Shown: piece by piece, positions 4,852 through 35,526 of the stretch
Layout: each line of letters begins with the position of its first letter
How positions within the stretch are numbered: the stretch's first letter is position 1
IMG/VR virus record: IMGVR_UViG_3300008252_000138
Span: 1-43,843 of that record
Strand: one strand, 5' to 3'
Length of the DNA: 43,843 nucleotides
Origin: a virus
Taxonomy: Duplodnaviria > Caudoviricetes
Program-made: the position numbers and the translations under genes
The notes under the pieces: model-generated
Seen by the model: the letters and a program-made list of their open reading frames with translations, nothing else
Databases searched by the model: none
What the model was told of the DNA's origin: nothing

Positions 4852-5949
4852 TTAGACGGCAGGGCCAATAGTTGGGAATGGCGCATTTGGAGGCGTGAAG
4901 CTATCGGTATAGCGAGCGACCCCCTTGGTCACCCGCACTAGGTCTGCATATCCGTAGTACGGCTGCTGCCGCACATTACTCCTACCGATACGAAGGACCC
5001 CGCCCGTTAGGTCACGGCTATCAGAGCCGGTGGCCACCAGCGCCCCGCCAAGAAAGAGTCTCGATACTCCAGAAGCACTCGTGACGGCATAGTGAATCCA
5101 CTCAGAAAACATGATCGTCTGTGATCCCGACATGATCCTGGCGGCGTTTGTCCAAACTGACGGCACGTTACCCGGCGCTGCACCAGTTGGGTAAACGGCT
5201 ATACCCGTATCACCGGCCCCTCCAGAAATCCTGCTATCAAATAAGCAGGCATACGAACTAACCGCGTTGCTCTTGATAAAACACTCGTACGTGTAGTCCT
5301 GAGTCCCCATCTGCAGATTTGGGTTTGCGGAAGAAGTCAGGTCTGCCGCACCACCGAAATACGCGGCCCCGCCTCCAAATACGCCCGACTCCTCTGGGAA
5401 CAAAACCCCGATGTTGTCCCAAACCCCACCCTTCAAGTCGGTGACACCACCATCAAATCGAAGGTACGCCACAACCTGATCCCAATAGGGATCAAACGCC
5501 CCCTGCACCCAACTGATATCACTAACCGGCCCATGAGCTATTGGCTGGTAATGCCGGACCGCTTGCATCATGGCCGTGCCCACCTCTCGGGGCACGCCTG
5601 CCATTGAGTTCCACCACTCCGGCTCGGCACTGGGTAGCGCTCCCGGGGAAGTGACCTGATACATCCAGCCGAGGAACTGAGTTGGCCGAATAACATCGCC
5701 AGCGACTACCGCCAGGTCCGGCTCGAATGGAGTACCCCACTCGTCAATCGCAACGGCGTAGATCCGACTGGTAGGAAGGCCAGTAATAGCAATCTCGGCA
5801 ACACCGTTTCCATCACTGGCACCATGACCGCACACCCGCCACTGCCCATAATCTGGCAGCTCGATAGCAACTACCTGCCTAGAGGCCGGCAAGTCGCCCA
5901 CGCGAACAGTCGCCGCCAGCGTGCCAAACCATAGGTTTTCTTCACTCAT
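4852..5949 (-). CDS. Receptor-binding/tail fibre protein with C-terminal LamG/ConA-like lectin domain
   Basis: Start MSEENLW by TGATG coupling; DPYWDQVVAYLRFDG, DYTYECFI, WIHYAV and LVRVTKGVARYT..FTPP motifs; less GC-biased than its neighbours. Confidence 0.8.
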   Translation of the reverse strand: MSEENLWFGTLAATVRVGDLPASRQVVAIELPDYGQWRVCGHGASDGNGVAEIAITGLPTSRIYAVAIDEWGTPFEPDLAVVAGDVIRPTQFLGWMYQVTSPGALPSAEPEWWNSMAGVPREVGTAMMQAVRHYQPIAHGPVSDISWVQGAFDPYWDQVVAYLRFDGGVTDLKGGVWDNIGVLFPEESGVFGGGAAYFGGAADLTSSANPNLQMGTQDYTYECFIKSNAVSSYACLFDSRISGGAGDTGIAVYPTGAAPGNVPSVWTNAARIMSGSQTIMFSEWIHYAVTSASGVSRLFLGGALVATGSDSRDLTGGVLRIGRSNVRQQPYYGYADLVRVTKGVARYTDSFTPPNAPFPTIGPAV

Positions 5950-7520
5950 CAGTCTGCATCCCCACGAATCTGGATCTTGAACTGGTCGTCCTCGACTGTG
6001 CCTTGCCCACTGACCACAGTACGTACGATCCACATCGGCCCGAGGCAGGCTTCGGTGTTGAAACGCACTGCGTTGCTCGCTGCCCAGCCGCTGCCCCAAC
6101 CTGCAGCCCGAATGATGAAGTAGGGCATGCCAGTGGCAGGATTGATCGGCGCGCAATCGTTGCCGGTTGTACCCGCGGCGATCACACCCAGTTGCGCTTC
6201 CACCACGTTGAACGCGGTTGAACTGGTGAAGATCAGCGCCCACTTGCCGGTGATTGCACCAATGTTGGTGATCTCGACCGGGTAGTTCAGCAGGTTGAAC
6301 TGCGCAGTGGTGCTGTTGCCCTGCTGGGTGTCAGTCCAGTTGGGCGCGCCGGTGTTCCACGTCTGCTGGGTGAACCAGTTGAATACCCGCGCCTGCAGGT
6401 CGCCCCAGGTCACGGCGCTGCTGACCACCGTTTCAGCGGCGGGCAGGTCCCACGGCACGGGCGAGCCAATGCCGAGCGCGCCGGTGATCTGCACCTCGGT
6501 GCACACGGTCATGTGCTCCACGCGGTCGCGGATCACCAGCGGGCTGGTCAGCGGGTTGCCTTCGGCATCCACGGCGGTGAACGGGTCTGCCCAGGTCAGC
6601 GTGCCCAGCTCACGGTCAGTGGTGTACTGATCCGGGCGCAGGGCAACACCGTTGGCGTCGACCATTTCGATGGCCGCCTGGTAGATACGCGGCAGCTGCA
6701 CCGTTTGACCGGCCACCGGGGTGGCCTCTGTCTCTGCGGTGTGCTGGATCACCAGCACGTCGCCGTCGCGGTACACCGGCACTCGCCCGTCTGCCGGCAG
6801 GCGCACCGGGTCGAGCCCCAGCAGCTCTGCGGACATTGGCAGGCTGGTCTGCACAACGGCGTTGTATGTGATCAGCGATGCGATCACCGGCACGCTGGCT
6901 GCGCCGCTCACGTCGAGCGGGTCAGTGGTGAAGCGCAGGCGGACGATGCCGGTTTGAATGTCTACGGTGCCGTGAATAATGCCGCCGGTGATGGTGCCGT
7001 TCAGGTCTGCCGTGGCGGTGACGATCTCTGCTGTGTCTGCCCGAACTACAGTGATCTGCAGGCTGGCTGGCCGCAGCGGTGCGCCGGGCGTGCGGAACGT
7101 GAGTTCGGTCGTGCTGAAGCCTGCGCTGCTGGTGAGGCAGGCGAGGCGCGTGACGCCGCCGCTGATGCCTGCCGGGTAGCTGGCCAGCGTGGCCTTGCGG
7201 CCGAGGTAGTCGACCGTGCCCACGGCCACACCGGCGTTAGTGCTGGTATTGACCGCGCGGAACAGCACGCCAGCGCGATCAATGTAGGTCTCGCCGCCCC
7301 ACTGCAGCACAAGGCTGCCGGGTACGATCGGGTCTGCCACACCGGGCAGCAGGTCCAGCTCCAGCGCCGGCGTGCTGACGGAGTGGCTTTGGCTTTCATA
7401 GGTGGCACCGGCAGCCTGGGCACGCACCATCAACGTGCCGCCGAATACCTCCTGACGCGGCACAACGGTGGTAACCGTGCGCGGCGTGCTTTTGTATCGT
7501 TTACCCGCGACTACGCCCAT
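5949..7520 (-). CDS. Tail/baseplate-like virion structural protein (C-terminal part of a large tail module)
   Basis: 523 aa; LLGLDPVRLPADGRVP motif; GAGGT SD. Confidence 0.75.
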   Translation of the reverse strand: MGVVAGKRYKSTPRTVTTVVPRQEVFGGTLMVRAQAAGATYESQSHSVSTPALELDLLPGVADPIVPGSLVLQWGGETYIDRAGVLFRAVNTSTNAGVAVGTVDYLGRKATLASYPAGISGGVTRLACLTSSAGFSTTELTFRTPGAPLRPASLQITVVRADTAEIVTATADLNGTITGGIIHGTVDIQTGIVRLRFTTDPLDVSGAASVPVIASLITYNAVVQTSLPMSAELLGLDPVRLPADGRVPVYRDGDVLVIQHTAETEATPVAGQTVQLPRIYQAAIEMVDANGVALRPDQYTTDRELGTLTWADPFTAVDAEGNPLTSPLVIRDRVEHMTVCTEVQITGALGIGSPVPWDLPAAETVVSSAVTWGDLQARVFNWFTQQTWNTGAPNWTDTQQGNSTTAQFNLLNYPVEITNIGAITGKWALIFTSSTAFNVVEAQLGVIAAGTTGNDCAPINPATGMPYFIIRAAGWGSGWAASNAVRFNTEACLGPMWIVRTVVSGQGTVEDDQFKIQIRGDAD

Positions 7521-23223: not shown

Positions 23224-23258
23224 AATCCGGACGCCCCAAATCGGTGCAACCCGGCCAC

Positions 23259-23993
23259 CTACCCCCCGAACCGCTCGATGGCCCTGCCGATCGCGCCTTC
23301 GACCAGCGCATCGTTCTCGGCAACCCGCCGCACCACGCGATGAAAGTCGAAGCGGGCCGAGTAGTTGGGTTGCTTCACGAACAGCAGCACCAGAGCAAGG
23401 GTCTTGCCTCTTCGCTCTGCGATACCAATGGGGGTCTTGCCGCGCTTCATCACGAAGAACGCCTTCGCGTGGCCCTTCTTCAGGGACCGAGCGCTGCGGG
23501 TTGCGACGATGGTCGAGCCAGACGGGTTGTCTGCACCCAGACCAGAAAGCACTTGCTGCATGTGGCCGCGAGACATGTTGCCGTAGGCGTCCATCCGCGC
23601 GCCCGGCCCCGGGGCCAGGAACATGCCCGAAGGCAGAATGCCCTGCTCCCGCAACCGGTACTCCGAGCGCTTAACCGATCTGCCTCCGCCGTAGACTTGC
23701 GGCTCGAACCACGCCTCGGGCGCCTGACCACCGCCCGCCCCGTCCTTCTCATCCTTGACCCAGACCGCCGCCTCGGGTGCCGATGGCTTGGCACGCAGCA
23801 GCCTGAATGCGTTCAGAGTAAAGCGCGTGGGCCTGTCGAATGCAGTGCGGGCCTCGGCCTGCAGCATCTTGATGGCCTCGGCTCCAACCTCGTTGACCGC
23901 CCATGCCAGTGCAGGATTGGCCTGCTTGCCCAGCTTCGCCAGATCTGCCAGCGCGTCGTCCAGGTCGGTGACGGCCAGCCCTGCGCCGATCAC
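23259..23993 (-). CDS. Conserved phage late protein upstream of cos
   Basis: 244 aa, basic; AFDRPTRFTLNA and DAYGNMSRG motifs. Confidence 0.7.
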   Translation of the reverse strand: MIGAGLAVTDLDDALADLAKLGKQANPALAWAVNEVGAEAIKMLQAEARTAFDRPTRFTLNAFRLLRAKPSAPEAAVWVKDEKDGAGGGQAPEAWFEPQVYGGGRSVKRSEYRLREQGILPSGMFLAPGPGARMDAYGNMSRGHMQQVLSGLGADNPSGSTIVATRSARSLKKGHAKAFFVMKRGKTPIGIAERRGKTLALVLLFVKQPNYSARFDFHRVVRRVAENDALVEGAIGRAIERFGG

Positions 23994-25393: not shown

Positions 25394-27166
25394 TTAAGCA
25401 TCAGGGCCTCCCGCATTACGCAGCGGTGCGCTGTATCCAATGCAGCCGTCCCACTTCTCCGGGTGCCAGCCGGCCTCAGCGGCCTGCCTGCGCCAATCGC
25501 GCACCAACTGGCCCAGCCGCTTGCCATCCGACAGGTCGAGCCCGTCAGGCGGGTTCGGCACAAAGAACATCGAGCGCCTTCGGTTGTTGAAGTCGTCGTA
25601 CCAGAAGTACTGCCCCGGCGACTTGTATGTGTCCGGCTTGGTGCCGAGAAACAGCCCGAACTTCGTCTCGCTCAACTTGTGCTCACCACCCCGCGAGCAC
25701 CACTCAGTGAACAGGCCGTATAGGTCCTGCGTGCGGCAAGGGCTGAACGGAATGCCAAGCCCGTCAGTCTTCCACAGGTTGTAGAACGTCTCCCAGGCGG
25801 TAAAGCTCAGCTCCACCAAGCGCTGCCGCGCTGGCGTCTTCGGTGGCCTGGTGCGCTCGTCAAAGTCGCCCAGGTCGTAATCCAGCAGGTACTGGTAAAA
25901 CGCCTCAATACCCCCGTTGGCCAGCTCCCAGCCGATCCGCTTCTGCGCCTTTTCCGGCAGCGTCAGCTCCGGCCACAGCACCAGCATGCGCCGGTCGTTC
26001 TCCCCGATCGGCCAGGGCAGGATCTCGTTGGACAGGAACACGGCGTTCATATAGTTCGCCTCTTCCCACCCGTTCATAAACTTGGATTCAATGCGCACCG
26101 TCTTGCCGGTGACCATGTGCTTGATCTTGCCCGTCTGGTTGTAGCGCTGGTCCCGGCTGACGACCTCCTCAAACAGGCCATACAGCTTGCTCGACTGCCA
26201 CTGGCTCCAGCTGCTCTCCAACTGCACCTGGCCAACCGTCGCGCCGTACTCCCCATAGATCGGCCGCATGATGTCGCCGAACAGCAGGCTCTTACCCGAG
26301 CCCTCCATCGTCGAGTGCATCAGCACCGCCGTGTCCAACTTCGCGCCCACATGCTGCAGCGGGAAGGCCAGCCACTTGGTCAGCCAGTCGACCGCATCCT
26401 GCTGGCCATTGCAGAGGAAGCCCAACAGCCAGACGATGCCACGGCACAGATCAAGATCGGGGTTCGGGGTAAGAGGCAGGCCCTCAAAGGTGTTGATCGT
26501 ATCCTTGGGGCTTTCCGTCATGCGCGGGTCAAACACCAGATTCGCAGCCGGGATCACCTGCCGCTGGTCCGAGTTCTGCCAGAGCGAGAACGCATCACCC
26601 AGCGCCAACTTCACCGCCGCCGCCGGCAAACGCTGCCGCAGCTGGCGGTCGTAAATATCTTGCGAACCGTCCAGGTACACATAGCGCCAGTACAAATCCT
26701 CGCTGCTGACCTGCCCCTTCGACTTGCCCAGCCGCTTGCCCAGCTTCGCATCCGTCTCCAGCCGCTTCGCGTGTTCAGGGTCCACGCCCTTCTTGCTCGG
26801 CAGGTCATACCACTGGTTGCCCAGAGCCTTACCCACCATCGCCAGAAAGCCCGTCTTCTTCACGACCACCTTACGGTGCAGGTCGAATACCTTCGTCTCG
26901 CCCTCCACCAGCGCAAACCGGCTTGTCACCTTCTCCAGCGTCCAGCCCGAAGCCTCCCCCGCCCCCTCTTCTGGCGGTGCCGCACCAGCGGCGGGCGCTG
27001 TGTCGGATGGGGCCGGGGGAAGGTCATCAGCCGCGTCAGGCTCGCCCGCCGTGCGCACACGCGGCAACGGCGCATTGGCCGCAGCCCGCTGCAACTGCTC
27101 GCGCACCACGTCCAGCCCAAACTCTACATGCAGGTCATTCCAATCGATCTTGCGGGATGCCGTCAT
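25394..27166 (-). CDS. SF3/D5-like (DUF5906-type) primase-associated helicase
   Basis: EGSGKS Walker A, LFEEV Walker B, FLSN motif C, DRR arginine finger; N-terminal DWNDLH. Confidence 0.85.
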   Translation of the reverse strand: MTASRKIDWNDLHVEFGLDVVREQLQRAAANAPLPRVRTAGEPDAADDLPPAPSDTAPAAGAAPPEEGAGEASGWTLEKVTSRFALVEGETKVFDLHRKVVVKKTGFLAMVGKALGNQWYDLPSKKGVDPEHAKRLETDAKLGKRLGKSKGQVSSEDLYWRYVYLDGSQDIYDRQLRQRLPAAAVKLALGDAFSLWQNSDQRQVIPAANLVFDPRMTESPKDTINTFEGLPLTPNPDLDLCRGIVWLLGFLCNGQQDAVDWLTKWLAFPLQHVGAKLDTAVLMHSTMEGSGKSLLFGDIMRPIYGEYGATVGQVQLESSWSQWQSSKLYGLFEEVVSRDQRYNQTGKIKHMVTGKTVRIESKFMNGWEEANYMNAVFLSNEILPWPIGENDRRMLVLWPELTLPEKAQKRIGWELANGGIEAFYQYLLDYDLGDFDERTRPPKTPARQRLVELSFTAWETFYNLWKTDGLGIPFSPCRTQDLYGLFTEWCSRGGEHKLSETKFGLFLGTKPDTYKSPGQYFWYDDFNNRRRSMFFVPNPPDGLDLSDGKRLGQLVRDWRRQAAEAGWHPEKWDGCIGYSAPLRNAGGPDA

Positions 27167-28212
27167 GCTGCCTCCCTGCTCTGCTCCGGCGCGACCGGAA
27201 ACACCGCAACCGCGTCAAACTCCAACGCCAGCGCCTCGGCCTGCACCCGGCCCGGGTTATCGCCGTTGGCCTTGGGGTCATCATCACCGGCTATCACCAA
27301 CTGCGCGTGCGGGTAGCGCTCACGAATACCGCGGGCAATGTGCGCCATGTTGCCCAGGTCCACACACATGATCGTCGGCCACTGCGTCGCCTGGTACACG
27401 CTGCAGGCCGTCGCGTAACCCTCGGCCAGCGCGATCACCGGCATATCATCCGACCGGCCAACCCAATGGCAGCAACCCTGCTTGCGCGCAAACTTCGGGA
27501 ACAGCTTGGTGCCATTGCCGTTAATGCTCTGGTGGCTCCACACGGTGCCGTCCAGATCGGCCAGCGGAATCAGAATGTCACCCGGCCCGTACTTGCGGAA
27601 TGAAAGGTGGTCTGGCGTTGGCTTCGGCAGCGCCCCGAAGAACTGGCCGATACTCTCCCCGGTCCAAATCTCACATACCCCGCGCTTGTCGTCCGTCACC
27701 ATCAGCACCGGCTGCGTCACAAAGCGCACCCCGAATGCCGGCGCCTGCTTGCGCTCCAGGTACGCAGACTTACCCCGCGCCTTCGTAAACTCAGACAACA
27801 GGCGAACAGTTGCAGCCTGGATCTGCTGCTGCATGTTCGCCTTGCGCTCTTCATCGGCCAGCACCTCAGCCTCACGCTGCTTGCGGCGGGCCTCCTGCTC
27901 CGCGCGCTGGCGGCGCTTTTCTTCAGCGGTCAGGCTCTGCTTGCGCGGCTTCCAACCCCGCTCCTTTGCCAGATGGATAACGGTACCGATACCCGTCTTC
28001 CCGCGCTTGCAGCTCTTCCAGACCGACTTAGCATCGGCTGCCTTGTATGAGTCGCCGTTCTGGCTCCAGCTGTTCCAATCATCAAACCCAGCCTCACCAA
28101 ACTCGGACTTAACGCCCATGGCCACCTGCACCCAGGTCTCGCGGTCATGTGCATCGATATGGGCCAGCAGCCCCGGCAGGTCATCGAGAGTAATATCGGG
28201 CAGATCAGCCAT
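27163..28212 (-). CDS. Primase: PriCT-2 domain plus Toprim
   Basis: RETWVQVAMGVK..FDDWNSWS (PriCT-2); AEGYATA and IAGDDD (Toprim). Confidence 0.88.
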   Translation of the reverse strand: MADLPDITLDDLPGLLAHIDAHDRETWVQVAMGVKSEFGEAGFDDWNSWSQNGDSYKAADAKSVWKSCKRGKTGIGTVIHLAKERGWKPRKQSLTAEEKRRQRAEQEARRKQREAEVLADEERKANMQQQIQAATVRLLSEFTKARGKSAYLERKQAPAFGVRFVTQPVLMVTDDKRGVCEIWTGESIGQFFGALPKPTPDHLSFRKYGPGDILIPLADLDGTVWSHQSINGNGTKLFPKFARKQGCCHWVGRSDDMPVIALAEGYATACSVYQATQWPTIMCVDLGNMAHIARGIRERYPHAQLVIAGDDDPKANGDNPGRVQAEALALEFDAVAVFPVAPEQSREAA

Positions 28213-28933
28213 GCTGCGCCCCCTTGATCACCTCGAACTCAACCACCCAGACCCAGGGATTTGCGTCCCAGCTCTCATCGCCGTTGATACTGCACCAGAG
28301 GTCGATAAACCCCATGCGAGATGCACGTGGCGCCAACTTCTTTAGCTTCACAGTAAGAGGGCGCGCGCCCTCGGCTTGTGCCTGCTCTTCGCTGATGTCA
28401 TGAAGGCGCTCAACGCGCACGGCGGTGATTTCCAGCTGGATACGGCTGGCCCAGCGCGGCATGTGGATTGATGGCCGCCATCTGCCTTCTGCCCCTGATA
28501 TCAAGTCCTCATACCACGCAGCGAAGTGATAGCCTTTCACGCGCTCATCGTCGTAGTTGAAAGCACCGTGATCGTCGAGAAAGCTCAGCTCTTCCATCAG
28601 GTCGCGAACGTCGCCGTCAGCTCGGTAGGCAATACCAGGAGCACCGGAAAGGTTCACATCAGCCCACGTCTCGCGCACCCACAGCCGATCGCCTGGCTGG
28701 CCGTATGGGCAGGGGATGATGTCCACCTCCGGAAAGTCCGTGTGCTCGCCTCGGCGGATAAAAACGCCAAACTTGTCTTTGTGCGGGTGCTTGCTGGTGA
28801 TTCGCCCGTAGCCTCCGGTGAACCTCCAATCGTTAGCCGGCTGCGGCTTCACCACCCGCCGCGTCACCGTCTTCCGGCCGTCCAGAATCGCGCTGACCAT
28901 CTCACCACTGAACAGAATCGGACGCTCAAGCAC
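28205..28933 (-). CDS. ASCH/PUA-like phage protein
   Basis: ERPILFSGEMVSAILDGRKTVTRR, GDRLWVRETW, WRPSIHMPRWASRI and WDANPWVWVVEF; native GTG at 28933. Confidence 0.85.
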   Translation of the reverse strand: MLERPILFSGEMVSAILDGRKTVTRRVVKPQPANDWRFTGGYGRITSKHPHKDKFGVFIRRGEHTDFPEVDIIPCPYGQPGDRLWVRETWADVNLSGAPGIAYRADGDVRDLMEELSFLDDHGAFNYDDERVKGYHFAAWYEDLISGAEGRWRPSIHMPRWASRIQLEITAVRVERLHDISEEQAQAEGARPLTVKLKKLAPRASRMGFIDLWCSINGDESWDANPWVWVVEFEVIKGAQHG

Positions 28934-29170
28934 GGCCCACCCCCTTATGCTCGCGGATCGCCTGGCAATGCACACAGCACTCAACCCCCGGCAGCGCCTC
29001 GCGCCGCTTGAGGGGAATGGCTTCATCACAGTCGAGGCAGTACGGGTGGTCGATAGCGGGCCGCGAGGCTTTCTGGAGGCGGGCCGCGAGGCTTTCTGGA
29101 GGCGGGCCGCGAGGGCATCATCGAGCATCTGCTGGGCGCGGTCGCTGCCCAGGTCGCAAGCATCAGCCAT
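28926..29170 (-). pseudogene. TraR/DksA C4 zinc-finger gene frameshifted by a 23-bp tandem duplication
   Basis: Removing one repeat unit gives MADACD...YCLDC-x17-CVHC (73 aa). Confidence 0.85.
29056..29114. repeat. 23-bp tandem repeat, about 2.6 copies
   Basis: GCGGGCCGCGAGGCTTTCTGGAG twice, then GCGGGCCGCGAGG. Confidence 0.95.
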
Positions 29171-29405
29171 GGTCTGCACCTCCCATTTCTGCCAGCGCCT
29201 GCTCCAGCGTTACCACGTCAACGCGGCGGCGCACGGCAGCGGTCAATACGCTCTCATCGTTGGTCAGCATCAGGTCGCCTTCGCCTGTCAGGTCGCCCAC
29301 CTTCCAATCGTCAACCACACGCACGCAGCCGTAGTGCTTGCGCAGCGCCTCGGCGTGTCTGGTCTTACCTGCGCCCTGCGGGGCGTACAAAATCAGCATG
29401 CTCAT
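29163..29405 (-). CDS. Small P-loop-containing phage protein
   Basis: ILYAPQGAGKT, VVDDW; 80 aa. Confidence 0.75.
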   Translation of the reverse strand: MSMLILYAPQGAGKTRHAEALRKHYGCVRVVDDWKVGDLTGEGDLMLTNDESVLTAAVRRRVDVVTLEQALAEMGGADHG

Positions 29406-29887
29406 GGCTCCACCCCCTCTTCCATCGCCTGCCGCGCGCCGGCCACGATGCCCAGCACCTGCCCGATCAACAGCCGCGCGTGGTATTCCAGATCGGCGAC
29501 CTCATGAGCCTCCCAGCGCCCGTCGTCGGCACCGGCATGCAGGCTGCCAACAAACTTGCCCTCTTCCTCAAGCATCTTGCCCAAGGCCTTGAGCGCGGGC
29601 TTAGTGGCGGGCACTGGCTGAGGGGTGAAAGCAACAGCCCCCGCACTGCGCACCAGCGCAGCGGTCAGGCGAGGGTCTTGCGTATGCGAGAGAATGTCCT
29701 CGATCCACTCCGGCGCGATTGGCCGGCGGTTGTTCGGGTTGAGGGCTTTTTGCAGGGCGTCTGGGTCGATGCCCATTTCCAACGCAACGGCAGTGATGCC
29801 GCCTCTGGCGTCACGGCAAGCGCGATACAGCGCGGCCCTGAGTGACAGCACCGGCCCGGCGTCCGGCAGCAAGTCTTTACGGCTCAT
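29402..29887 (-). CDS. Phage regulatory protein, CII family
   Basis: GGITAVALEMG..L.KALNP HTH, DDGRWE..E; located downstream of cro. Confidence 0.8.
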   Translation of the reverse strand: MSRKDLLPDAGPVLSLRAALYRACRDARGGITAVALEMGIDPDALQKALNPNNRRPIAPEWIEDILSHTQDPRLTAALVRSAGAVAFTPQPVPATKPALKALGKMLEEEGKFVGSLHAGADDGRWEAHEVADLEYHARLLIGQVLGIVAGARQAMEEGVEP

Positions 29888-29946
29888 CGGTCTTATTTCC
29901 CCTTTAACGCCGTAGCCAAGGGGCGCAGGGGCGCTTATCCTTGGTC

Positions 29947-30205
29947 TACAGCAGTCGCCGGCCCCTTTGCACTGGCTGTGTCGGGGGCCTGACTGTTGTA
30001 CGGTGAGCGGTGTGGTAGCTGCTCACCAACCCCGTCAGGGCCTTGGGTCTTCCGTGGTAGGTGGTCCCTTGGCTCTGACACCTATTCAGCCAGTCGCAAC
30101 GCGGCTGGCTTTGTTTCTTGCTCTGTGCCGGTAGCGGTCTGCTGGTGAGGCTCCCGCTACCGGCTCCCGCCGTGCTTGAGTTGGCTGTGTCCGGCGGGTG
30201 TTTCT
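29947..30205 (+). ncRNA. Candidate antisense hairpin-array RNA between cII and cro
   Basis: Six consecutive stem-loops; G-U pairs in four stems work only on the plus strand; loops carry GTGGTAG(GTGG) and TGGCTGTGTC. Confidence 0.6.
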
Positions 30206-30208
30206 CTA

Positions 30209-30445
30209 TTAGGCGGCTGCTGGTTCGGCAGGCTGATTGCGCAGATAGCCCCAATCGATATCGGGCCGGATATCCTCGCAGCGAACGGCTCCGTCGCTGG
30301 CCATGTCGATCCGGATTGCGAGTTCAGCACTTGCCCGCCGACCGTACGCAACCTGCCTGATCTGGCCCGGAGTGCTGCGGCACTTGAGCGCAAATGCCTC
30401 AAGCGCGGCGGCCTTCATGGGCTTGATGTAATCCAGCAGGTTCAT
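30209..30445 (-). CDS. Cro/YdaS-like repressor
   Basis: 78-aa HTH with C-terminal IRPDIDWGYL; divergent from CI. Confidence 0.88.
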   Translation of the reverse strand: MNLLDYIKPMKAAALEAFALKCRSTPGQIRQVAYGRRASAELAIRIDMASDGAVRCEDIRPDIDWGYLRNQPAEPAAA

Positions 30446-30481
30446 AACGTTGGCTCGCTTAGGTTGATCTTGAGCGATTTT

Positions 30482-30534
30482 GTTACCTCAAGGTAACTAA
30501 TGTCAACACCTTTAGGTCAATTACTTTTTTGTAC
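30482..30534. promoter_or_regulatory. Right operator/promoter region
   Basis: GTTACCTCAAGGTAAC palindrome at 30482-30497; ACC-TTTA-GGT at 30508-30517; minus-strand TTGACA at 30501-30506. Confidence 0.7.
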
Positions 30535-30555
30535 AAACAGGCGCACAATTTCCGC

Positions 30556-31314
30556 ATGGACGTACAAGCGATTCGGCGAGCCAATCTGGCAGCCCTCATA
30601 GACTCAAGATTCGGCGGCGTGCAGAGCGCGCTGGCGGAAGCAATTGACCGCTCCCCCAGCTACATCAATCGCTGCCTGCTCCCAGACGATCACAAGAACC
30701 ACAAACCACTGGGCGAGAAGTTCGCCCGGCACGTTGAGCGCGAACTCGGCATGCTGCCCGGCGCTCTGGATGTACCCACCGGTATGGACAACCCCGAGCG
30801 CCGCTCATTTCTGGCGGTTGCTACCGACCACCGCGCTGAATACGAACTCTCCCCGGTCGAAACATGGAGTGACGACACCCCCCTCGGTGAAGACGAGGTG
30901 GAGCTACCGTTCTACAAGGAAGTTGAAATGTCTGCTGGCAAAGGATCCGAAGTCAGGATTGAAGACCACGGCCGCAAGCTGCGCTTTGGCAAGCGCACCC
31001 TCAGCCGCAAGAACATCATTCCCGAGTGCGCAGCCTGCGCCACGGTCACCGGCAACAGCATGGAACCGGTCCTGCCCGACGGCACCACAGTAGGCATCAA
31101 CACCGGCATAACCAGCATCAAGGACGGGCAGATGTATGCCATCGACCACGACGGCCAGCTGCGAGTAAAGGTTTTATACCGTCGCCCTGGCAATGGAATC
31201 CGCCTGCACAGCTACAACGATACCGAGCACCCAGACGAGATATACGAGGCAGATTACGTAGCAGATAAGATCCGCATCATCGGCCAGGTATTTTGGTACT
31301 CAGTCTTACTTTGA
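30556..31314 (+). CDS. CI-like repressor with S24 autopeptidase
   Basis: N-terminal HTH; SAG cleavage site, GNSMEP (Ser), RVKVL (Lys), IIGQVFW. Confidence 0.93.
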   Translation: MDVQAIRRANLAALIDSRFGGVQSALAEAIDRSPSYINRCLLPDDHKNHKPLGEKFARHVERELGMLPGALDVPTGMDNPERRSFLAVATDHRAEYELSPVETWSDDTPLGEDEVELPFYKEVEMSAGKGSEVRIEDHGRKLRFGKRTLSRKNIIPECAACATVTGNSMEPVLPDGTTVGINTGITSIKDGQMYAIDHDGQLRVKVLYRRPGNGIRLHSYNDTEHPDEIYEADYVADKIRIIGQVFWYSVLL

Positions 31315-31322
31315 CCTTTTTT

Positions 31323-31364
31323 TACCAAAAGGTATTGATTAAACCTTTTACTTAAAGGTACATT
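31323..31364 (+). promoter_or_regulatory. Left operator/promoter of the early operon
   Basis: TACC-AAAA-GGTA at 31323-31334 and TACT-TAAA-GGTA at 31349-31360 match the right operators; TTGATT...TACATT promoter-like elements. Confidence 0.7.
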
Positions 31365-31399
31365 TGTGTTGAACCCACCTACCACACAGGTTCAACACA

Positions 31400-31594
31400 A
31401 TGCAGACACAGCCAAGCAACACCTGCAGGGTATACCTGCACCCCACAGCGGCCAGTAATCCGGCCACTATCGCAGCCATCACAGCCCGCACCGGCATGGC
31501 CATCGTTATCGGTGGCAACCGCCGTGGGGCAGCCCTGCGCCCTTCGCGCCCCGCCGACGACCTCGGCCCATGGGACGGAGGGTCAGCCGCGTGA
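31400..31594 (+). CDS. First early gene, hypothetical
   Basis: 64 aa; start lies at the base of the 31365-31399 hairpin; GTGA-coupled to the next gene. Confidence 0.7.
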   Translation: MQTQPSNTCRVYLHPTAASNPATIAAITARTGMAIVIGGNRRGAALRPSRPADDLGPWDGGSAA

Positions 31595-31866
31595 ACAAGC
31601 TCACCGCCAACAGCCAGCGCCTGCTGGTTCACCAAATCAAAAGCCGCGGCTCCTTCCTCGTTGTGCTCCAGCAGCCCAACGGCGAGCGCGTGCGCGCCAA
31701 GCTGGAAACCCAGCACGATGGCCAGCGCATCAACCTCACCCTGCGCGCCTGCGGCACCGTCAACAGCACCACGCTACCACTGGTGCAAGCTGACAGAACC
31801 CTCAAGCACCGCGCCCAACGCTGGATCGAAGACTGCGCCAATGGCCGGCTGGAGCGTGCAGCGTGA
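31591..31866 (+). CDS. Early hypothetical protein
   Basis: GTG start with GGAGG SD, coupled. Confidence 0.7.
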   Translation: MNKLTANSQRLLVHQIKSRGSFLVVLQQPNGERVRAKLETQHDGQRINLTLRACGTVNSTTLPLVQADRTLKHRAQRWIEDCANGRLERAA

Positions 31867-32108
31867 GCCGGGAAGAACAGCGGAAAGTGGCTCTCAGAGC
31901 AATAGCCCGCATGCTGGAACAAGTTCGCCGCCCCAAAAGCTTCGACCTTGGCGAGTATGGGCACCTCGGCGGCCTGATCAATATGGCGGCCTTCCTGGGC
32001 GTGATCGACTTCTCTGAGGCTACCCGACTGGTTGAGCTCAAGAGCAACGCAGGGGATTACGCCGCCCGCGATTACCGAGCAGAACAGGAGGCTACCCATG
32101 CCGCGTGA
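31863..32108 (+). CDS. Early hypothetical protein
   Basis: 81 aa, GTGA-coupled. Confidence 0.7.
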   Translation: MSREEQRKVALRAIARMLEQVRRPKSFDLGEYGHLGGLINMAAFLGVIDFSEATRLVELKSNAGDYAARDYRAEQEATHAA

Positions 32109-32382
32109 ATTCGACCTGGGCCAAGCAGCCAAAGCGCTCGGCACCGGGCGCACCCGCCTGTGCCGCGAACTGAAGGCCCGCAAAATCCTTGACCAGTTCA
32201 ACCTGCCCAACAACCAGAGCGACATCGAGGCCGGGCGCTTCCGCGTGTGCCTCAAGTCGCACAACGGCAACCCGCAGCTTAACAACGGCAACGGCGTCAC
32301 CTACGCCAAAACCTACGTCACCGAGAAGGGCCTGCGCTGGCTGGCCGGCCTGCTGGGCGTGCAGATTGAGGAGGCCGCATGA
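32098..32382 (+). CDS. Antirepressor KilAC (ANT)-domain protein
   Basis: AAKALGTGRTRL..L...KIL, N.P....IEAGRF and KTYVTEKGLRWL motifs. Confidence 0.85.
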   Translation: MPREFDLGQAAKALGTGRTRLCRELKARKILDQFNLPNNQSDIEAGRFRVCLKSHNGNPQLNNGNGVTYAKTYVTEKGLRWLAGLLGVQIEEAA

Positions 32383-32753
32383 TCAACAAGACCTCCACCA
32401 ACCCGCTGCCGCTGATCTCCGACACCATCGGCGCGATCAAGCTGCTGCAGCTGCACCTGCAACACCCCAGCTATGTGGACACCAAGCAGGCCAGCAAGGC
32501 GGCAGACGACGCCCTGCAGCGCCTGTTCCTGCTGGACGACAAAGCCCTGCGCCTGGCAGAAGCCCTGCACCTGGGCATTGCCCGCTTCCCGCACCCGCTG
32601 AGCGTCAGCGTGGGGCTGTCTGGTCGCGATCTGGACATGCTGCAGATCACCGTCATGGACGGCGAGCACGTCATGCGCACCATCCAGGCGAAGACTGTCG
32701 AAGGCCTGCGCGAACTGCTCGCCCTGGGCGACCTGTCACCGGAGGCAGCATGA
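32379..32753 (+). CDS. Early hypothetical protein
   Basis: 124 aa, ATGA-coupled. Confidence 0.7.
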   Translation: MINKTSTNPLPLISDTIGAIKLLQLHLQHPSYVDTKQASKAADDALQRLFLLDDKALRLAEALHLGIARFPHPLSVSVGLSGRDLDMLQITVMDGEHVMRTIQAKTVEGLRELLALGDLSPEAA

Positions 32754-32998
32754 CCACCGCCACCCTGGCACAGCTGCAGCGCCGCTACACGCTGCCGTAT
32801 CTCACCCTGAGCGAACTGCGGGCCGAGCACTTCCCGCACATTCGCACAGACCGCCACCTGCGCCGGCTGATCGACACCGGCGAGCTGAAGATCACGCTCC
32901 AGCGGCTGCACGAATCCAAACGCAGCCCGCTGGTCGTCACCCTGGAAGAGCTGGCCCGATACCTCGACGCCCAGCTCCAACGGGCCAACGCCGCCTAA
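32750..32998 (+). CDS. Pyocin activator PrtN-family protein
   Basis: TLAQLQRRY...LSELRAEHFPHI...SKRSPLVVTLEELARYLD; ATG at 32750 with GGAGG SD. Confidence 0.75.
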   Translation: MTTATLAQLQRRYTLPYLTLSELRAEHFPHIRTDRHLRRLIDTGELKITLQRLHESKRSPLVVTLEELARYLDAQLQRANAA

Positions 32999-33024
32999 GC
33001 GGCACACAACCAGAGGAAGCACCA

Positions 33025-33369
33025 ATGAAACCTACCGACCCGGGCGAGTTCATCGCCAGCTTGAACGCCGGCGTACTCGCCAACCAGATGGGCATGGCCC
33101 TGTCGCACGTCGCCGCCGGCGTCGTTGAGCACGGCAAGAAGGGCAAAGTCACCCTCACGCTTGAGCTGAGCCAGATCGGCGACAGCCACCAGGTGAAAGT
33201 GGCCCACAAGCTGGACTTTACCGAGCCAACCAAGCGCGGCAGCAAGCGTGAAGACACTGCCACCGAGACGCCGTTCTTCGTCACTGCCAACGGCCTGCAG
33301 CTGTTCGCAGACAACCCCAGCGGCCAACTGTTTAGCAAGCAGGACGCCCCGGTCGTCGCCCGCGACTGA
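33025..33369 (+). CDS. Conserved phage protein, usual partner of DUF2303
   Basis: VAAGVVEHGKKGKVTLTL..HKLDF..PTKRG..TP.FV. Confidence 0.8.
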   Translation: MKPTDPGEFIASLNAGVLANQMGMALSHVAAGVVEHGKKGKVTLTLELSQIGDSHQVKVAHKLDFTEPTKRGSKREDTATETPFFVTANGLQLFADNPSGQLFSKQDAPVVARD

Positions 33370-33410
33370 CCGCCAGCAGCACCAATCCACCTACCACAAG
33401 GAAAGACCTA

Positions 33411-34229
33411 ATGCTGACAGCAGAAACACTCAAGCAAATCACAGACGCCGCCAACGTCGCCTACGGCAAGCCGCTGGAGTCGTTCACTCCCGCACTGCTG
33501 GTTCCTGATAGCTACTCGCTGAAGAACATCGAGCATCTGCAAGAGTTCCGCAGTCGCTTCCGCGGGCAACTGCGCACCGAATCCATCGCCGACTTCTGCA
33601 AGTACGTCAAAGAGCACCGCGTAGAAACCTTCGCCACCATCGGATTCGTAGACGCAGAGCGCATGGCCTGCAATGTCATCTTCAATCTCGGCCACATCGA
33701 AGAGCCAGGCCACGGTGACGACGAAGCGCTGCTGCAGCTCAAGCCCACCGCTGCGTTCAAGGCCATGAAGCAGATCGCCGGCGAACACCTCGGCCAGACC
33801 AAACTGGCCGAATGGATGGAGGACTGGCACGGCAACCTGGTCGTGATCGACGCCAACGGCGAGAAGATGGAAGTCGCCGATGCCGTACAGAAGATCCGCA
33901 CCATCACCATCACTGCGAAGGCAGAGCGCACCAGCTCCGAGAGCAACTTCGGTACCAGCCGCAGTGCGATGGACTCCATTGAAGCCAAGCACGCCGAGAA
34001 GCAGCCGGCCGAACTGCACTTCACCACTGTGCCGTATGAGGGCCTTGCAGCACGCACCTTCATCCTGCGGATCAGCATCCGCACCGGCGAGAAGCCAACG
34101 CTGATGCCCCGCTGGGCCATGCAGGAACAGAACGAAGAAGACATGGCGCAGGAGTTTAAGCAAGTACTACTGAACGAGCTGAGCGAAGTCGCAGACCTCA
34201 CCGTCGGCACCTTCGCCATCGTCAAGTAA
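33411..34229 (+). CDS. DUF2303 (YfdQ-like) protein
   Basis: RFRGQLRTESIADF, PGHGD, LAEWMEDW and F...PYEGL motifs. Confidence 0.85.
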   Translation: MLTAETLKQITDAANVAYGKPLESFTPALLVPDSYSLKNIEHLQEFRSRFRGQLRTESIADFCKYVKEHRVETFATIGFVDAERMACNVIFNLGHIEEPGHGDDEALLQLKPTAAFKAMKQIAGEHLGQTKLAEWMEDWHGNLVVIDANGEKMEVADAVQKIRTITITAKAERTSSESNFGTSRSAMDSIEAKHAEKQPAELHFTTVPYEGLAARTFILRISIRTGEKPTLMPRWAMQEQNEEDMAQEFKQVLLNELSEVADLTVGTFAIVK

Positions 34230-34302
34230 CCACCTACCACAGCAGCCAACCCGGCGGCGCGCCAACCACGCCAGCGCCGCCGGGCGCAGGGAGACACAGC
34301 CA

Positions 34303-34797
34303 ATGACCGAACCAACCACCCTCACCGCCATCCACTACCTGGGCGCCGCCATCCTCGTCCTGATTGCCCTGCTGGCCATCGCCTGCTGGTGGGCCTATGA
34401 CGCATTTGAGCGCGGCAGCAGCATGGGCCGAGCCGAACTCAGCAAGCTGCGCGCAGGCATGAACTCGGCAAACCGCAACAACAACGACCTACGCCGCGAG
34501 ACAGTCAGCCTCAAGAACCAGCTGGAGCGCATCAAGTCGGACTACGCCCAGGCGCTGGAACAGCAGCAGCTGAACCATGAACAGGAACTGCAAGCCCTGC
34601 GCGCCCAGCTCACGCCCCTCAGCGAACGCGACATCACGACCATCCAGCAGATGGCCGAAAAGCTCAACCTCAGCTCGCCCGCGCTCCACGCCGCCGGCCA
34701 CTTCCGCGAAGCCAAGCAGGCCAAGAACCTTGCCTCCAGCGGCTTCCGCATCGTCGACGACCTCAACCGCGCCCGCGCCACGCAGGAGGCAGCATGA
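34303..34797 (+). CDS. Membrane-anchored coiled-coil hypothetical protein
   Basis: N-terminal TM helix followed by a heptad-rich region. Confidence 0.75.
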   Translation: MTEPTTLTAIHYLGAAILVLIALLAIACWWAYDAFERGSSMGRAELSKLRAGMNSANRNNNDLRRETVSLKNQLERIKSDYAQALEQQQLNHEQELQALRAQLTPLSERDITTIQQMAEKLNLSSPALHAAGHFREAKQAKNLASSGFRIVDDLNRARATQEAA

Positions 34798-34997
34798 CAG
34801 GCCAAGCCATCCGCACCCGGCAAGAGCTGATGCAGCAACACGCTGCCCACGCCGCCAACATCGCCCTGCTGCTGCGCACCCCGCCCGAGGGCGAAGCCGC
34901 TCGCTTTCGCCGGCAAAAGACAATCGACAACCTGCGCAACCAGATGCTGGATATCGACATCCAGCTGATGCGCGAAGAATGCGCAGAGGGGGCCTGA
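34794..34997 (+). CDS. Hypothetical protein
   Basis: 67 aa, ATGA-coupled. Confidence 0.65.
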   Translation: MTGQAIRTRQELMQQHAAHAANIALLLRTPPEGEAARFRRQKTIDNLRNQMLDIDIQLMREECAEGA

Positions 34998-34998
34998 C

Positions 34999-35526
34999 AT
35001 GACGTGGATCATCACCGCCAGCGGTCGCCGCTTCGACCTGCTGAACCCTCAGCCTGACGCTATCGCACCACGCGATATCGCATTCAGCTTGGCCAAAATC
35101 TGCCGCTTCAACGGTCACTGCACAGGCCACTACTCCGTTGCCGAACACAGCCTGCGAGTCGCCGAACTGGTCGCGCCAGAGCACAAGCTCGCCGCCCTGC
35201 TGCACGACGCAACCGAGGCATATGTTGGCGACATGGTCAGCCCACTGAAACAGATGCTGCCGGCCTACCAACAGATCGAGCAGCGCATTTGGCACGTCAT
35301 CTGTGACCGTTTCGGGATCAACCCAACGCTGCCGGACGAAGTGCACCAGGCTGACCTGACAATGCTCGCCACCGAGCGCCGAGACCTGATGCCAGCCCAC
35401 CCAGACGAGTGGGCCTGCCTTGCAGGCATCACCCCGGCCAGCGGAACCATCAAGCCACTCAGCGCCATCCACGCTCGATTCCAGTATGAACAGGCTCTGC
35501 TCGAAGTGCTTGGAGGTGACCTGTGA
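34999..35526 (+). CDS. HD-domain phosphohydrolase (YfdR-like nucleotidase)
   Basis: CRFNGH..YSVAEHS, ALLHDATEAYVGD and ADLTMLATERRDL motifs. Confidence 0.9.
   Translation: MTWIITASGRRFDLLNPQPDAIAPRDIAFSLAKICRFNGHCTGHYSVAEHSLRVAELVAPEHKLAALLHDATEAYVGDMVSPLKQMLPAYQQIEQRIWHVICDRFGINPTLPDEVHQADLTMLATERRDLMPAHPDEWACLAGITPASGTIKPLSAIHARFQYEQALLEVLGGDL

What the first reader, a model, noticed from the sequence alone, without database searches (positions are those of the whole stretch)
29947..30205. Antisense hairpin array between cro and cII with loops complementary to start regions of several early genes (candidate multi-target phage sRNA switch)
Seen: six stem-loops with stems at 29947-56/29991-30000, 30002-10/30019-27, 30034-42/30071-79, 30088-97/30101-10 (followed by a U-rich tail), 30127-37/30154-64 and 30166-72/30192-98. 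The first four contain G-U pairs that work only on the plus strand, which is antisense to cro-cII. The loops display GTGGTAG (30012-18), GTGGTAGGTGG (30054-64) and TGGCTGTGTC (29973-82, 30182-91). Exact complements occur at initiation regions of the plus-strand early operon: CCACCTACCAC at 31375, 33387 and 34230, and GACACAGCCA at 31405 and 34293, with a near-match ACACAACCA at 33004. Established: lambda PRE transcribes in this direction from cII toward cI, and P1 c4 and P4 CI RNAs act through short loop-target pairing. Inference: a PRE-like transcript, possibly processed into several small guide hairpins, represses early lytic genes in trans during lysogeny establishment. An alternative is that the motifs are protein or antitermination sites on both early transcripts.
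Basis: partly seen in the sequence, partly recalled or inferred. Interest (0 to 1): 0.85.

Follow-up and report, generated by a model that had tools for sequence, protein, structure and literature searches.

The report
Modular phage antisense guide-hairpin RNA array
Between the cro and cII genes of this Pseudomonas-family prophage lies a conserved row of hairpins whose loops are complementary to the start regions of genes in the phage's other early operon and change in step with them across related phages, so it likely encodes an RNA brake on early genes, although no transcript or effect has been shown.

Summary
The six stems, loop motifs and five exact complements are confirmed; the near-match at 33004 is not supported. 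The element recurs in relatives found through the CII-like gene (143 loci), as arrays of mostly 2-6 hairpins behind a conserved plus-strand promoter whose predicted start falls at hairpin 1. Stems covary and favour plus-strand G-U pairs (69 vs 21). Two loop seeds match sites at translation starts of the divergent early operon, and loop and site switch together between phages, even where the cI/cro block between them is swapped. Best reading: an antisense RNA from the establishment-promoter position that blocks translation of several early genes. It works like P1 C4/P4 CI but is not a member (Rfam negative with positive control). Unshown: transcript, processing, sign of effect. Against: no wobble signature in loop-target pairs (8 vs 7), and RNA-seq was uninformative. 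Independence of the switches on a tree was not counted. The scan noted this element before on other genomes; eight literature searches found no description.

The parts
29402..29887 (-). CII-like regulator (Pfam Phage_CP76, PHROG 101)
29889..29911 (.). Position of a conserved inverted repeat around the cII ribosome-binding site, just upstream of the array promoter: candidate CII site or cII mRNA hairpin; degenerate in this genome
   Evidence: arms of 7 bp or more in 92 of 107 loci vs 12 of 1070 shuffles; the window's own copy is imperfect (sequence)
29913..29941 (+). Predicted sigma-70 promoter of the array (-35 at 29913-29918, 17-bp spacer, -10 at 29936-29941; predicted +1 at 29948)
   Evidence: 78 of 81 loci, spacer 17 in 76; 57 of 63; too weak for the consensus scan
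29947..30000 (+). Hairpin 1, A-seed loop (29973-29982)
30002..30027 (+). Hairpin 2, short B-type loop (30011-30018)
30034..30079 (+). Hairpin 3, main B-seed loop (30054-30064); the loop can pair across the ribosome-binding site of gene 33411
   Evidence: predicted duplex -34.8 kcal/mol
30088..30120 (+). Hairpin 4 with U-rich tail, terminator-like, no guide loop
   Evidence: the tail is only partly U-rich in relatives
30127..30164 (+). Hairpin 5, second B-type loop; no cognate start site here, but 11-nt complement to the third site of phage pAN (L083)
   Evidence: (read by eye)
30166..30198 (+). Hairpin 6, second A-seed loop (30181-30191)
30209..30445 (-). Cro-like repressor
30455..30487 (+). 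Terminator-like hairpin on the array strand before cI; may end read-through
   Evidence: only; conservation not tested
30556..31314 (+). CI-like repressor (S24 peptidase domain)
31335..31364 (+). Likely promoter of the divergent early operon (PL equivalent), picked by eye; overlaps palindromic operator-like sites
   Evidence: sequence, positions; inferred
31364..31415 (+). Target 1: leader hairpin showing the B site in its loop (31375-31385), start codon 31400, A site in codons 2-6 (31405-31415)
31400..31594 (+). First early gene, 64 aa, unknown function (PHROG 13491); its stop overlaps the next start; the operon goes on to KilAC/Ant (32098) and PrtN-like (32750) genes
33387..33413 (+). Target 2: B site (33387-33397) directly before the ribosome-binding site of the YfdQ/DUF2303 gene 33411
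34229..34305 (+). Target 3: B site after the YfdQ stop (34229-34240), hairpin with a one-mismatch B site in its loop, A site between ribosome-binding site and start codon 34303 (34293-34303)

Best explanation
The cro-cII spacer holds a conserved hairpin array whose loops are complementary to translation-start regions of the divergent early operon; it is likely transcribed from a plus-strand promoter at the cII start into an RNA that would pair with those regions and block their translation. Shown from sequence: the stems, their covariation, the promoter-like boxes, two seeds (A and B) and matching sites at three early genes, in the antiparallel order that a two-site duplex needs (A loop 5' of B loop in the array, B site 5' of A site in targets 1 and 3). 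Inferred: loop-loop contact at the exposed B site, then pairing of the A loop over the ribosome-binding-site-to-start spacer or the first codons, silencing the first gene and, by translational coupling, the anti-repressor-domain and PrtN-like genes behind it, plus YfdQ and the gene after it. The effect would favour or stabilise lysogeny beside CI. The same RNA is fully antisense to the cro-cII message. Activation of the promoter by the CII-like protein and cutting into single guides (RNase P-like) are weaker inferences.
For: Promoter: pattern in 78 of 81 and 57 of 63 loci, spacer variable in sequence but 17 bp in 76 of 78; the first helix starts at the predicted +1 in 48 of 107 arrays and within -1..+2 in 66. 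Structure: 95.3% of cells paired, 8 of 15 pairs with changes on both sides, slid controls 26-56%. Strand: with a strand-neutral stem finder, G-U 69 vs A-C 21 in 97 B stems (distinct contexts 44 vs 19, p 0.002) and 10 vs 2 in 15 A stems. Co-variation: cognate array-leader complement 11.2 nt vs 8.9 swapped vs 5.5 random, 0 of 20000 permutations, and each seed class matches its own arrays best or, for one class of 6, second-best. In 30 loci found through the early gene instead: 8.9 vs 6.6, and 9 nt or more in 15 of 30 vs 4.9% of swaps. 36 distinct cognate matches among 121 loci. Position: in 122 loci, 186 of 310 A hits and 158 of 292 B hits fall in start windows that cover 14% of the DNA, vs 7 of 84 and 8 of 54 on the other strand; 142 A hits sit in one 5-nt bin just before the start codon. 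Hairpin 3's loop pairs across the ribosome-binding site of gene 33411. Targets are predicted to be mostly unpaired (0.69-0.90). On the cro-cII strand the A motif is not at a conserved start (no start in 41 of 108; no ribosome-binding site in 67 of 67). Precedent: P1 a2/b2 sites of 7 and 8 nt before icd (record annotation).
Against: No transcript evidence: three raw-read runs had no reads on a relative's locus and contigs give no strand. Interruptions in loop-target duplexes show no G-U preference (8 G-U vs 7 A-C). The leader hairpins, which are certainly plus-strand if RNA, show no G-U bias (12 vs 14), which limits the strand test; a first version of the test (21 vs 5) was little beyond a composition control of 53 vs 22. 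The minus strand also folds far better than chance, and its z-score was the better one in 15 of 58 arrays. A promoter at this place is expected anyway for cI establishment. Relatives share ancestry, so permutation p-values overstate independence; switches were not counted on a tree. Pairing in a leader loop could open the hairpin and activate, as IsrK does (PMC4825925, section 21). The A match is under 7 nt in 9 of 133 loci.
Confidence: 0.6

Rival explanations
1. Same RNA and same pairing, but it activates: binding in the target loop opens the hairpin that holds the ribosome-binding site and switches on the coupled anti-repressor-domain genes, as IsrK does for orf45-anrP in Gifsy-1.
For: In target 1 the ribosome-binding site lies at the loop-to-3'-arm junction of a conserved hairpin. 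The operon has a small first ORF overlapping the next gene and a KilAC/Ant gene downstream. IsrK acts so in trans (PMC4825925, passages and section 21). By eye, the B loops resemble b1 loops of the c4-a1b1 alignment, which includes a Salmonella row.
Against: A sites sit between ribosome-binding site and start codon or in the first codons, and the hairpin 3 duplex covers the ribosome-binding site of 33411; both would occlude the ribosome. The likely early promoter starts inside the 5' arm, leaving only a 5-bp stem.
Confidence: 0.13
2. The motifs work in the same sense on both early transcripts (cro-cII message and divergent operon) as binding sites for a phage or host protein: nut/boxB-like antitermination sites, or a decoy row for a translational repressor.
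For: Lambda nutL and nutR lie in the first leader and after cro (recalled). The minus strand folds well and shows the motifs in loops in the same order as the targets; target hairpins and minus-strand array hairpins look alike. There is no wobble signature in loop-target pairs.
Against: Plus-strand G-U bias in array stems; hairpin 1 begins at the predicted +1 of the plus-strand promoter; matches run 11-14 nt in 84 of 121 loci with phage-specific flanks, more than a protein would need. Phages PG1 and pAN have 92% identical first early proteins but mutually non-matching seeds, and the protein has no arginine-rich tract (at most 4 in 10 residues). No start follows the A motif on the minus strand. 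Only that protein and the CII-like one were examined as binders.
Confidence: 0.15
3. The plus-strand RNA is mainly the protected 5' leader of an establishment transcript for cI, or a cis-antisense RNA against cro-cII; the likeness to the early-gene starts is a relic of inverted duplication and has no function in trans.
For: Promoter position equals that of phage 186 pE (PMC6593788, passage) and lambda PRE; the CII-like protein is of the CP76 family; hairpin 3's loop resembles an inverted copy of the 33411 start region; hairpin 5 has no target here.
Against: Seeds switch together at up to three sites 1-4 kb away while stems and flanks diverge, and stay matched across swaps of the cI/cro block. 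Tracts of 8-14 nt are too short for ordinary gene conversion (own knowledge). Terminator-like hairpins lie between the array and cI.
Confidence: 0.08

Closest known systems
C4 antisense RNA of phages P1/P7 (Rfam RF01695) with a1/b1/a2/b2 sites (RF03163)
   Same: Two short seeds (7 and 8 nt in P1) pair with two sites near the start of a small first gene that overlaps an anti-repressor gene (record annotation). The precursor is an RNase P substrate (cited in PMC5499578, passages). The c4-a1b1 element is also two hairpins right behind a -10 box with G/U-rich second loops (supplement file 5, part 65).
   Different: C4 lies on the same strand and transcript as its targets; here the RNA gene is a separate unit antisense to cro-cII and its targets lie in the divergent operon, at three genes over 3 kb. 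The fold is a row of 2-6 independent hairpins, not the C4 three-helix junction. No Rfam match.
P4 CI RNA with seqA/seqC
   Same: Short-seed antisense control of a phage early operon, favouring lysogeny (PMC4825925, section 21).
   Different: CI is processed from the transcript it controls and causes premature termination; it scores as C4 in Rfam, and this array does not.
IsrK of Salmonella prophage Gifsy-1 (RF01394; SeqA-like)
   Same: A small hairpin RNA that pairs in trans with the start region of a small ORF coupled to an anti-repressor.
   Different: IsrK is the 5' end of its own target mRNA and activates translation; no Rfam match here.
Establishment promoters: phage 186 pE and lambda PRE
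   Same: A promoter at the cII start facing cro and cI; 186 CII binds an inverted repeat at -38 and -58 (PMC6593788, passage), and an inverted repeat lies at about -40 and -55 in most relatives.
   Different: The half-site spacing is about 15 bp rather than 20; the repeat is degenerate in this genome. No guide-hairpin leader was mentioned for pE or PRE in the passages read.
Lambda OOP RNA and P22 sar RNA
   Same: Antisense RNAs in the lysis-lysogeny switch (PMC12197685, passages).
   Different: These are cis-encoded, single-target, long-duplex RNAs; OOP overlaps the 3' end of cII (PMC7067206, passage).

Membership tests
C4 / CI antisense RNA (RF01695, clan CL00128) | Covariance-model match | tested here: not met
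   No hit at gathering score in the window or 10 relatives, none at E up to 10 in 29500-35000; P1, P4 and N15 controls hit at 69-79 bits
C4 / CI antisense RNA (RF01695, clan CL00128) | RNA encoded on the same strand and transcript as its target sites | tested here: not met
   Array lies before cro and cI under its own predicted promoter; targets lie behind cI in the divergent early operon; P1 layout
C4 / CI antisense RNA (RF01695, clan CL00128) | Three-helix junction closed by a long terminal stem | tested here: not met
   Folds give independent exterior hairpins; C4 rows seen
C4 / CI antisense RNA (RF01695, clan CL00128) | Two short seeds complementary to two sites at the start of a small gene upstream of an anti-repressor | tested here: met
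   met as complementarity only
C4 / CI antisense RNA (RF01695, clan CL00128) | Maturation by RNase P | not testable with these tools
   Hint only: 33 of 93 distinct B hairpins end in the same three-base, tRNA-end-like tail
C4 / CI antisense RNA (RF01695, clan CL00128) | Repression of target translation or premature termination shown | not testable with these tools
   Needs reporters
IsrK / c4-a1b1 (RF01394, RF03163) | Covariance-model match | tested here: not met
   negative; controls positive. The reverse search with model R1 missed P1, P4 and N15, but it also missed the window's own array, so it is a weak test
Lambda nut (boxA-boxB) with N-type antiterminator | Arginine-rich first early protein binding same-sense hairpins | tested here: not met
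   R+K 8.9%, at most 4 Arg in 10 residues in 121 proteins; the defining feature is recalled
CII-activated establishment promoter (186 pE type) | CII inverted repeat flanking the -35 region, CII-dependent activity | tested here: inconclusive
   Repeat present in 92 of 107 loci but with other spacing, and it could be an mRNA hairpin; activity not testable

The most novel reading that the evidence does not exclude
The array is a programmable, modular guide cassette: it is cut into single hairpin guides, each tuned to one early gene, and forms an RNA immunity code that is independent of the CI/Cro specificity. Extra guides with no target at home (hairpin 5 here, complementary over 11 nt to the third site of phage pAN) silence the early operon of related superinfecting or co-resident phages.
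Probability: 0.2. Interest if true: 0.9.

Novelty: new variant of a known kind. Interest (0 to 1): 0.72.

Why it matters
If right, a common group of Pseudomonadaceae temperate phages (marker gene in 38 of 301 family genomes searched; cultured examples PG1, pAN, Lodos, LPPA56) carries an RNA layer in the lysis-lysogeny switch that works beside CI and survives swaps of the cI/cro block. Natural compensatory pairs such as PG1 and pAN make the pairing model directly testable. Stackable hairpin guides with 8-14-nt seeds and no evident dedicated protein would also be a compact design for multi-gene silencing in Pseudomonas.

Tried and rejected
RNA evidence: one run search with a relative's locus (L064) gave 14 RNA holders, all as contigs. 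Five contig runs covered the locus but show neither strand nor ends; a contig break across hairpin 1 in run X11 is a hole and proves nothing; three raw-read runs had no reads. No test resulted. Wobble test on loop-target duplexes: uninformative. An upstream start codon behind the A motif on the cro-cII strand (seen in one clade, and annotated as the CII start in Lodos): rejected as a conserved start. The 33004 near-match: rejected. Own covariance model R1 from 36 two-hairpin arrays: it found Lodos but not the window's six-hairpin type, so it was not used for range. Function of the first early protein: no Pfam, unnamed PHROG, 116 representatives at E up to 0.001, Atlas hits under 0.9, fold of low confidence (pLDDT 58.8), so no fold search was run. 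A search with the YfdQ protein in viral contigs gave 1 locus. DNA similarity to annotated phages reached mainly cII and cI. Hand-set values: array ends for 11 loci and starts for 3; gene starts came from a simple script, so some 'far' hits may be missed starts. Literature: searches found no description of this element. Not seen: the supplementary text of PMC5737381, unnamed candidate lists in viral structured-RNA screens and Pseudomonas sRNA catalogues, and subscription papers; any of these may list it without a function. Open: the number of independent seed switches on a tree.

Full report
Setting. The window is a whole virus record of 43,843 bases. The finding lies between a CII-like gene (29402-29887, minus; Phage_CP76) and a Cro-like gene (30209-30445, minus), with a CI-like repressor (30556-31314, plus) next. 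A plus-strand early operon runs from 31400 through KilAC/Ant, PrtN-like, YfdP/YfdQ/YfdR-like and methylase genes to the integrase (the YfdP and YfdQ names come from the PG1 record). The closest named relative of the CII-like protein is in a Halopseudomonas genome (99% over the best segment).

Observation. Both strands fold better than all 200 shuffles, plus more strongly (z -6.0 vs -5.2). Three of 17 early start windows hold a complement of 10 nt or more, against 4 of 600 loop shuffles. The near-match at 33004 is not supported, hairpin 4 looks like a terminator, and hairpin 5 has no target at an early start here. Rfam gives nothing in the window or 10 relatives, whereas the P1, P4 and N15 regions score as C4, isrK or c4-a1b1.

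Family. The CII-like protein fetched the best 80 of 209 viral loci and 60 genome loci; three cultured phages were added. Their cro-cII spacers hold hairpin rows: of 107 distinct arrays, 52 have two domains, 10 have six, and 2 fold as one. The smallest form is about 70-80 nt: one hairpin with the A seed, one with the B seed. All 58 distinct arrays of the first set fold with lower energy on the window's plus strand, with the better z-score in 43. In an alignment of 36 two-hairpin arrays 95.3% of cells pair and 8 of 15 pairs change on both sides, against 26-56% for slid controls. The first early gene, used as a marker, was found in 133 of 144 loci, in 38 of 301 family genomes and in 2 of 400 class genomes, so the system appears largely confined to the Pseudomonas family.

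Which strand. A -35/-10 pattern with a 17-bp spacer of variable sequence lies on the plus strand at the cII start in 78 of 81 and 57 of 63 loci. The first helix begins at the predicted +1 in 48 of 107 arrays and within -1..+2 in 66. A strand-neutral stem finder counts 69 G-U against 21 A-C positions in 97 B stems and 10 against 2 in 15 A stems. Against this, a first version gave 21 vs 5 with a composition control of 53 vs 22, and leader stems show 12 vs 14. On the minus strand the A motif is sometimes followed by a start codon, but 41 of 108 loci have none and none of the other 67 has a ribosome-binding site. The plus strand is therefore the likelier RNA, not a proven one.

Targets and co-variation. 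The B site sits in the loop of a hairpin about 21 nt before the first early gene, with the A site in its first codons. A second B site lies directly before the YfdQ ribosome-binding site. A third target after YfdQ shows B in a hairpin loop and A between ribosome-binding site and start codon. Beyond the leader, cognate 8-mers in 122 loci fall in start windows (14% of the DNA) in 186 of 310 and 158 of 292 cases, against 7 of 84 and 8 of 54 on the other strand. In 53 distinct array-leader pairs the cognate match averages 11.2 nt, swapped pairs 8.9 and random windows 5.5. In 30 loci found through the early gene the figures are 8.9 vs 6.6, with 9 nt or more in 15 of 30; at least three of these genomes were in the earlier set, and the 1.5-kb flank may cut off some arrays. 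Among 121 loci there are 36 distinct cognate matches of 8 nt or more. In L137 both seeds switch together with their sites, and in pAN and L142 hairpin 5 matches the third site, while in pAN hairpin 3 matches the first two (read by eye). Near-identical arrays and leaders flank unrelated cro/cI blocks (window, L002, L004, L007), and two RNA-run contigs show the block replaced between conserved flanks. The permutation values (0 of 20000) ignore shared ancestry, and switches were not counted on a tree. Interruptions in the duplexes show no G-U preference (8 vs 7), so direct pairing is inferred from matching, not from wobble.

Mechanism. Most likely the promoter at the cII start makes a hairpin RNA whose B loop contacts the exposed target loop and whose A loop covers the start region, blocking translation. 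In the window, hairpin 3's loop can pair across the whole ribosome-binding region of gene 33411 (-34.8 kcal/mol), and target sites are predicted to be mostly unpaired. The genes hit head a coupled run that includes an anti-repressor domain and a PrtN-like activator, so repression would favour lysogeny. A conserved inverted repeat at about -40 and -55 (92 of 107 loci) recalls the 186 CII site at -38 and -58 (PMC6593788, passage) but may equally be a cII mRNA hairpin. The same three-base tail after 33 of 93 B hairpins hints at RNase P cutting as in C4 and CI (PMC5499578, passages). Transcript, processing, timing and sign are all unshown; RNA-seq gave no test. The rivals are activation of the IsrK type, same-sense protein sites, and a cis-only role. 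The protein-site rival is weakened by PG1 and pAN, whose first early proteins are 92% identical while their seeds do not cross-match, and by the lack of an arginine-rich tract.

Comparison and novelty. It works like P1 C4 and P4 CI (two short seeds, small first gene, anti-repressor downstream) but fails the family tests on model score, fold and layout. What differs is a separate gene antisense to cro-cII, a variable number of stacked guides, and several targets in the opposite operon. Papers seen: PMC2864571 (passages; supplement file 5, parts 41 and 65), PMC4825925 (passages, section 21), and PMC5499578, PMC5737381, PMC12197685, PMC7067206, PMC6593788 (passages). Eight searches found no description; unnamed entries in RNA-candidate supplements were not checked. 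The scan's own notes list the same kind of element on other genomes: five read it as antisense and one as a leader RNA before cII. They are unchecked notes, seen after my main tests, and are not counted as support. Verdict: a real, conserved, apparently undescribed variant of short-seed phage antisense control; interest 0.72.

Noticed in passing
window 25394-28212: The primase is in two overlapping ORFs (349 and 590 aa, both PHROG 2249), whereas Lodos, PG1 and pAN have one ORF of about 900 aa.
   Followed up: no
window 29056-29114: Perfect 23-bp tandem repeat, 2.6 copies, inside the ORF 28205-29179; a non-triplet period in a coding frame may mean a wrong start, a frameshift or an assembly slip.
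   Followed up: no
window 32750-32998: A PrtN (pyocin activator)-like gene in the early operon, found in 129 of 144 loci; if the RNA represses it, this may bear on host pyocin control.
   Followed up: partly
window 7126-7138 (minus strand): 13-nt complement to the loop of hairpin 5 inside a late ORF (5949-7520), not at a start; probably chance.
   Followed up: no
window 23255-23263: A 9-nt B-type site on the plus strand at the end of ORF 23259-23993, antisense to the late operon.
   Followed up: no
window 30485-30523 and 31324-31365: Four palindromic operator-like sites over the cro and early promoters, likely CI operators.
   Followed up: no
window 30012-30018; PMC2864571 supplement file 5 part 65: The loop of hairpin 2 equals the b1 loop of a Pseudomonas row in the c4-a1b1 alignment (by eye), which raises possible cross-talk with, or descent from, C4-type elements of the host.
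   Followed up: partly
L081 8438-8563 and 6589-7128 (phage Lodos): The record annotates an ORF on the opposite strand where the conserved first early gene lies, and starts CII inside hairpin 1; both look like annotation errors.
   Followed up: partly
L064 6907-6950, run X10: A second low-depth contig carries another array type, suggesting two prophages with different B seeds in one sample.
   Followed up: no
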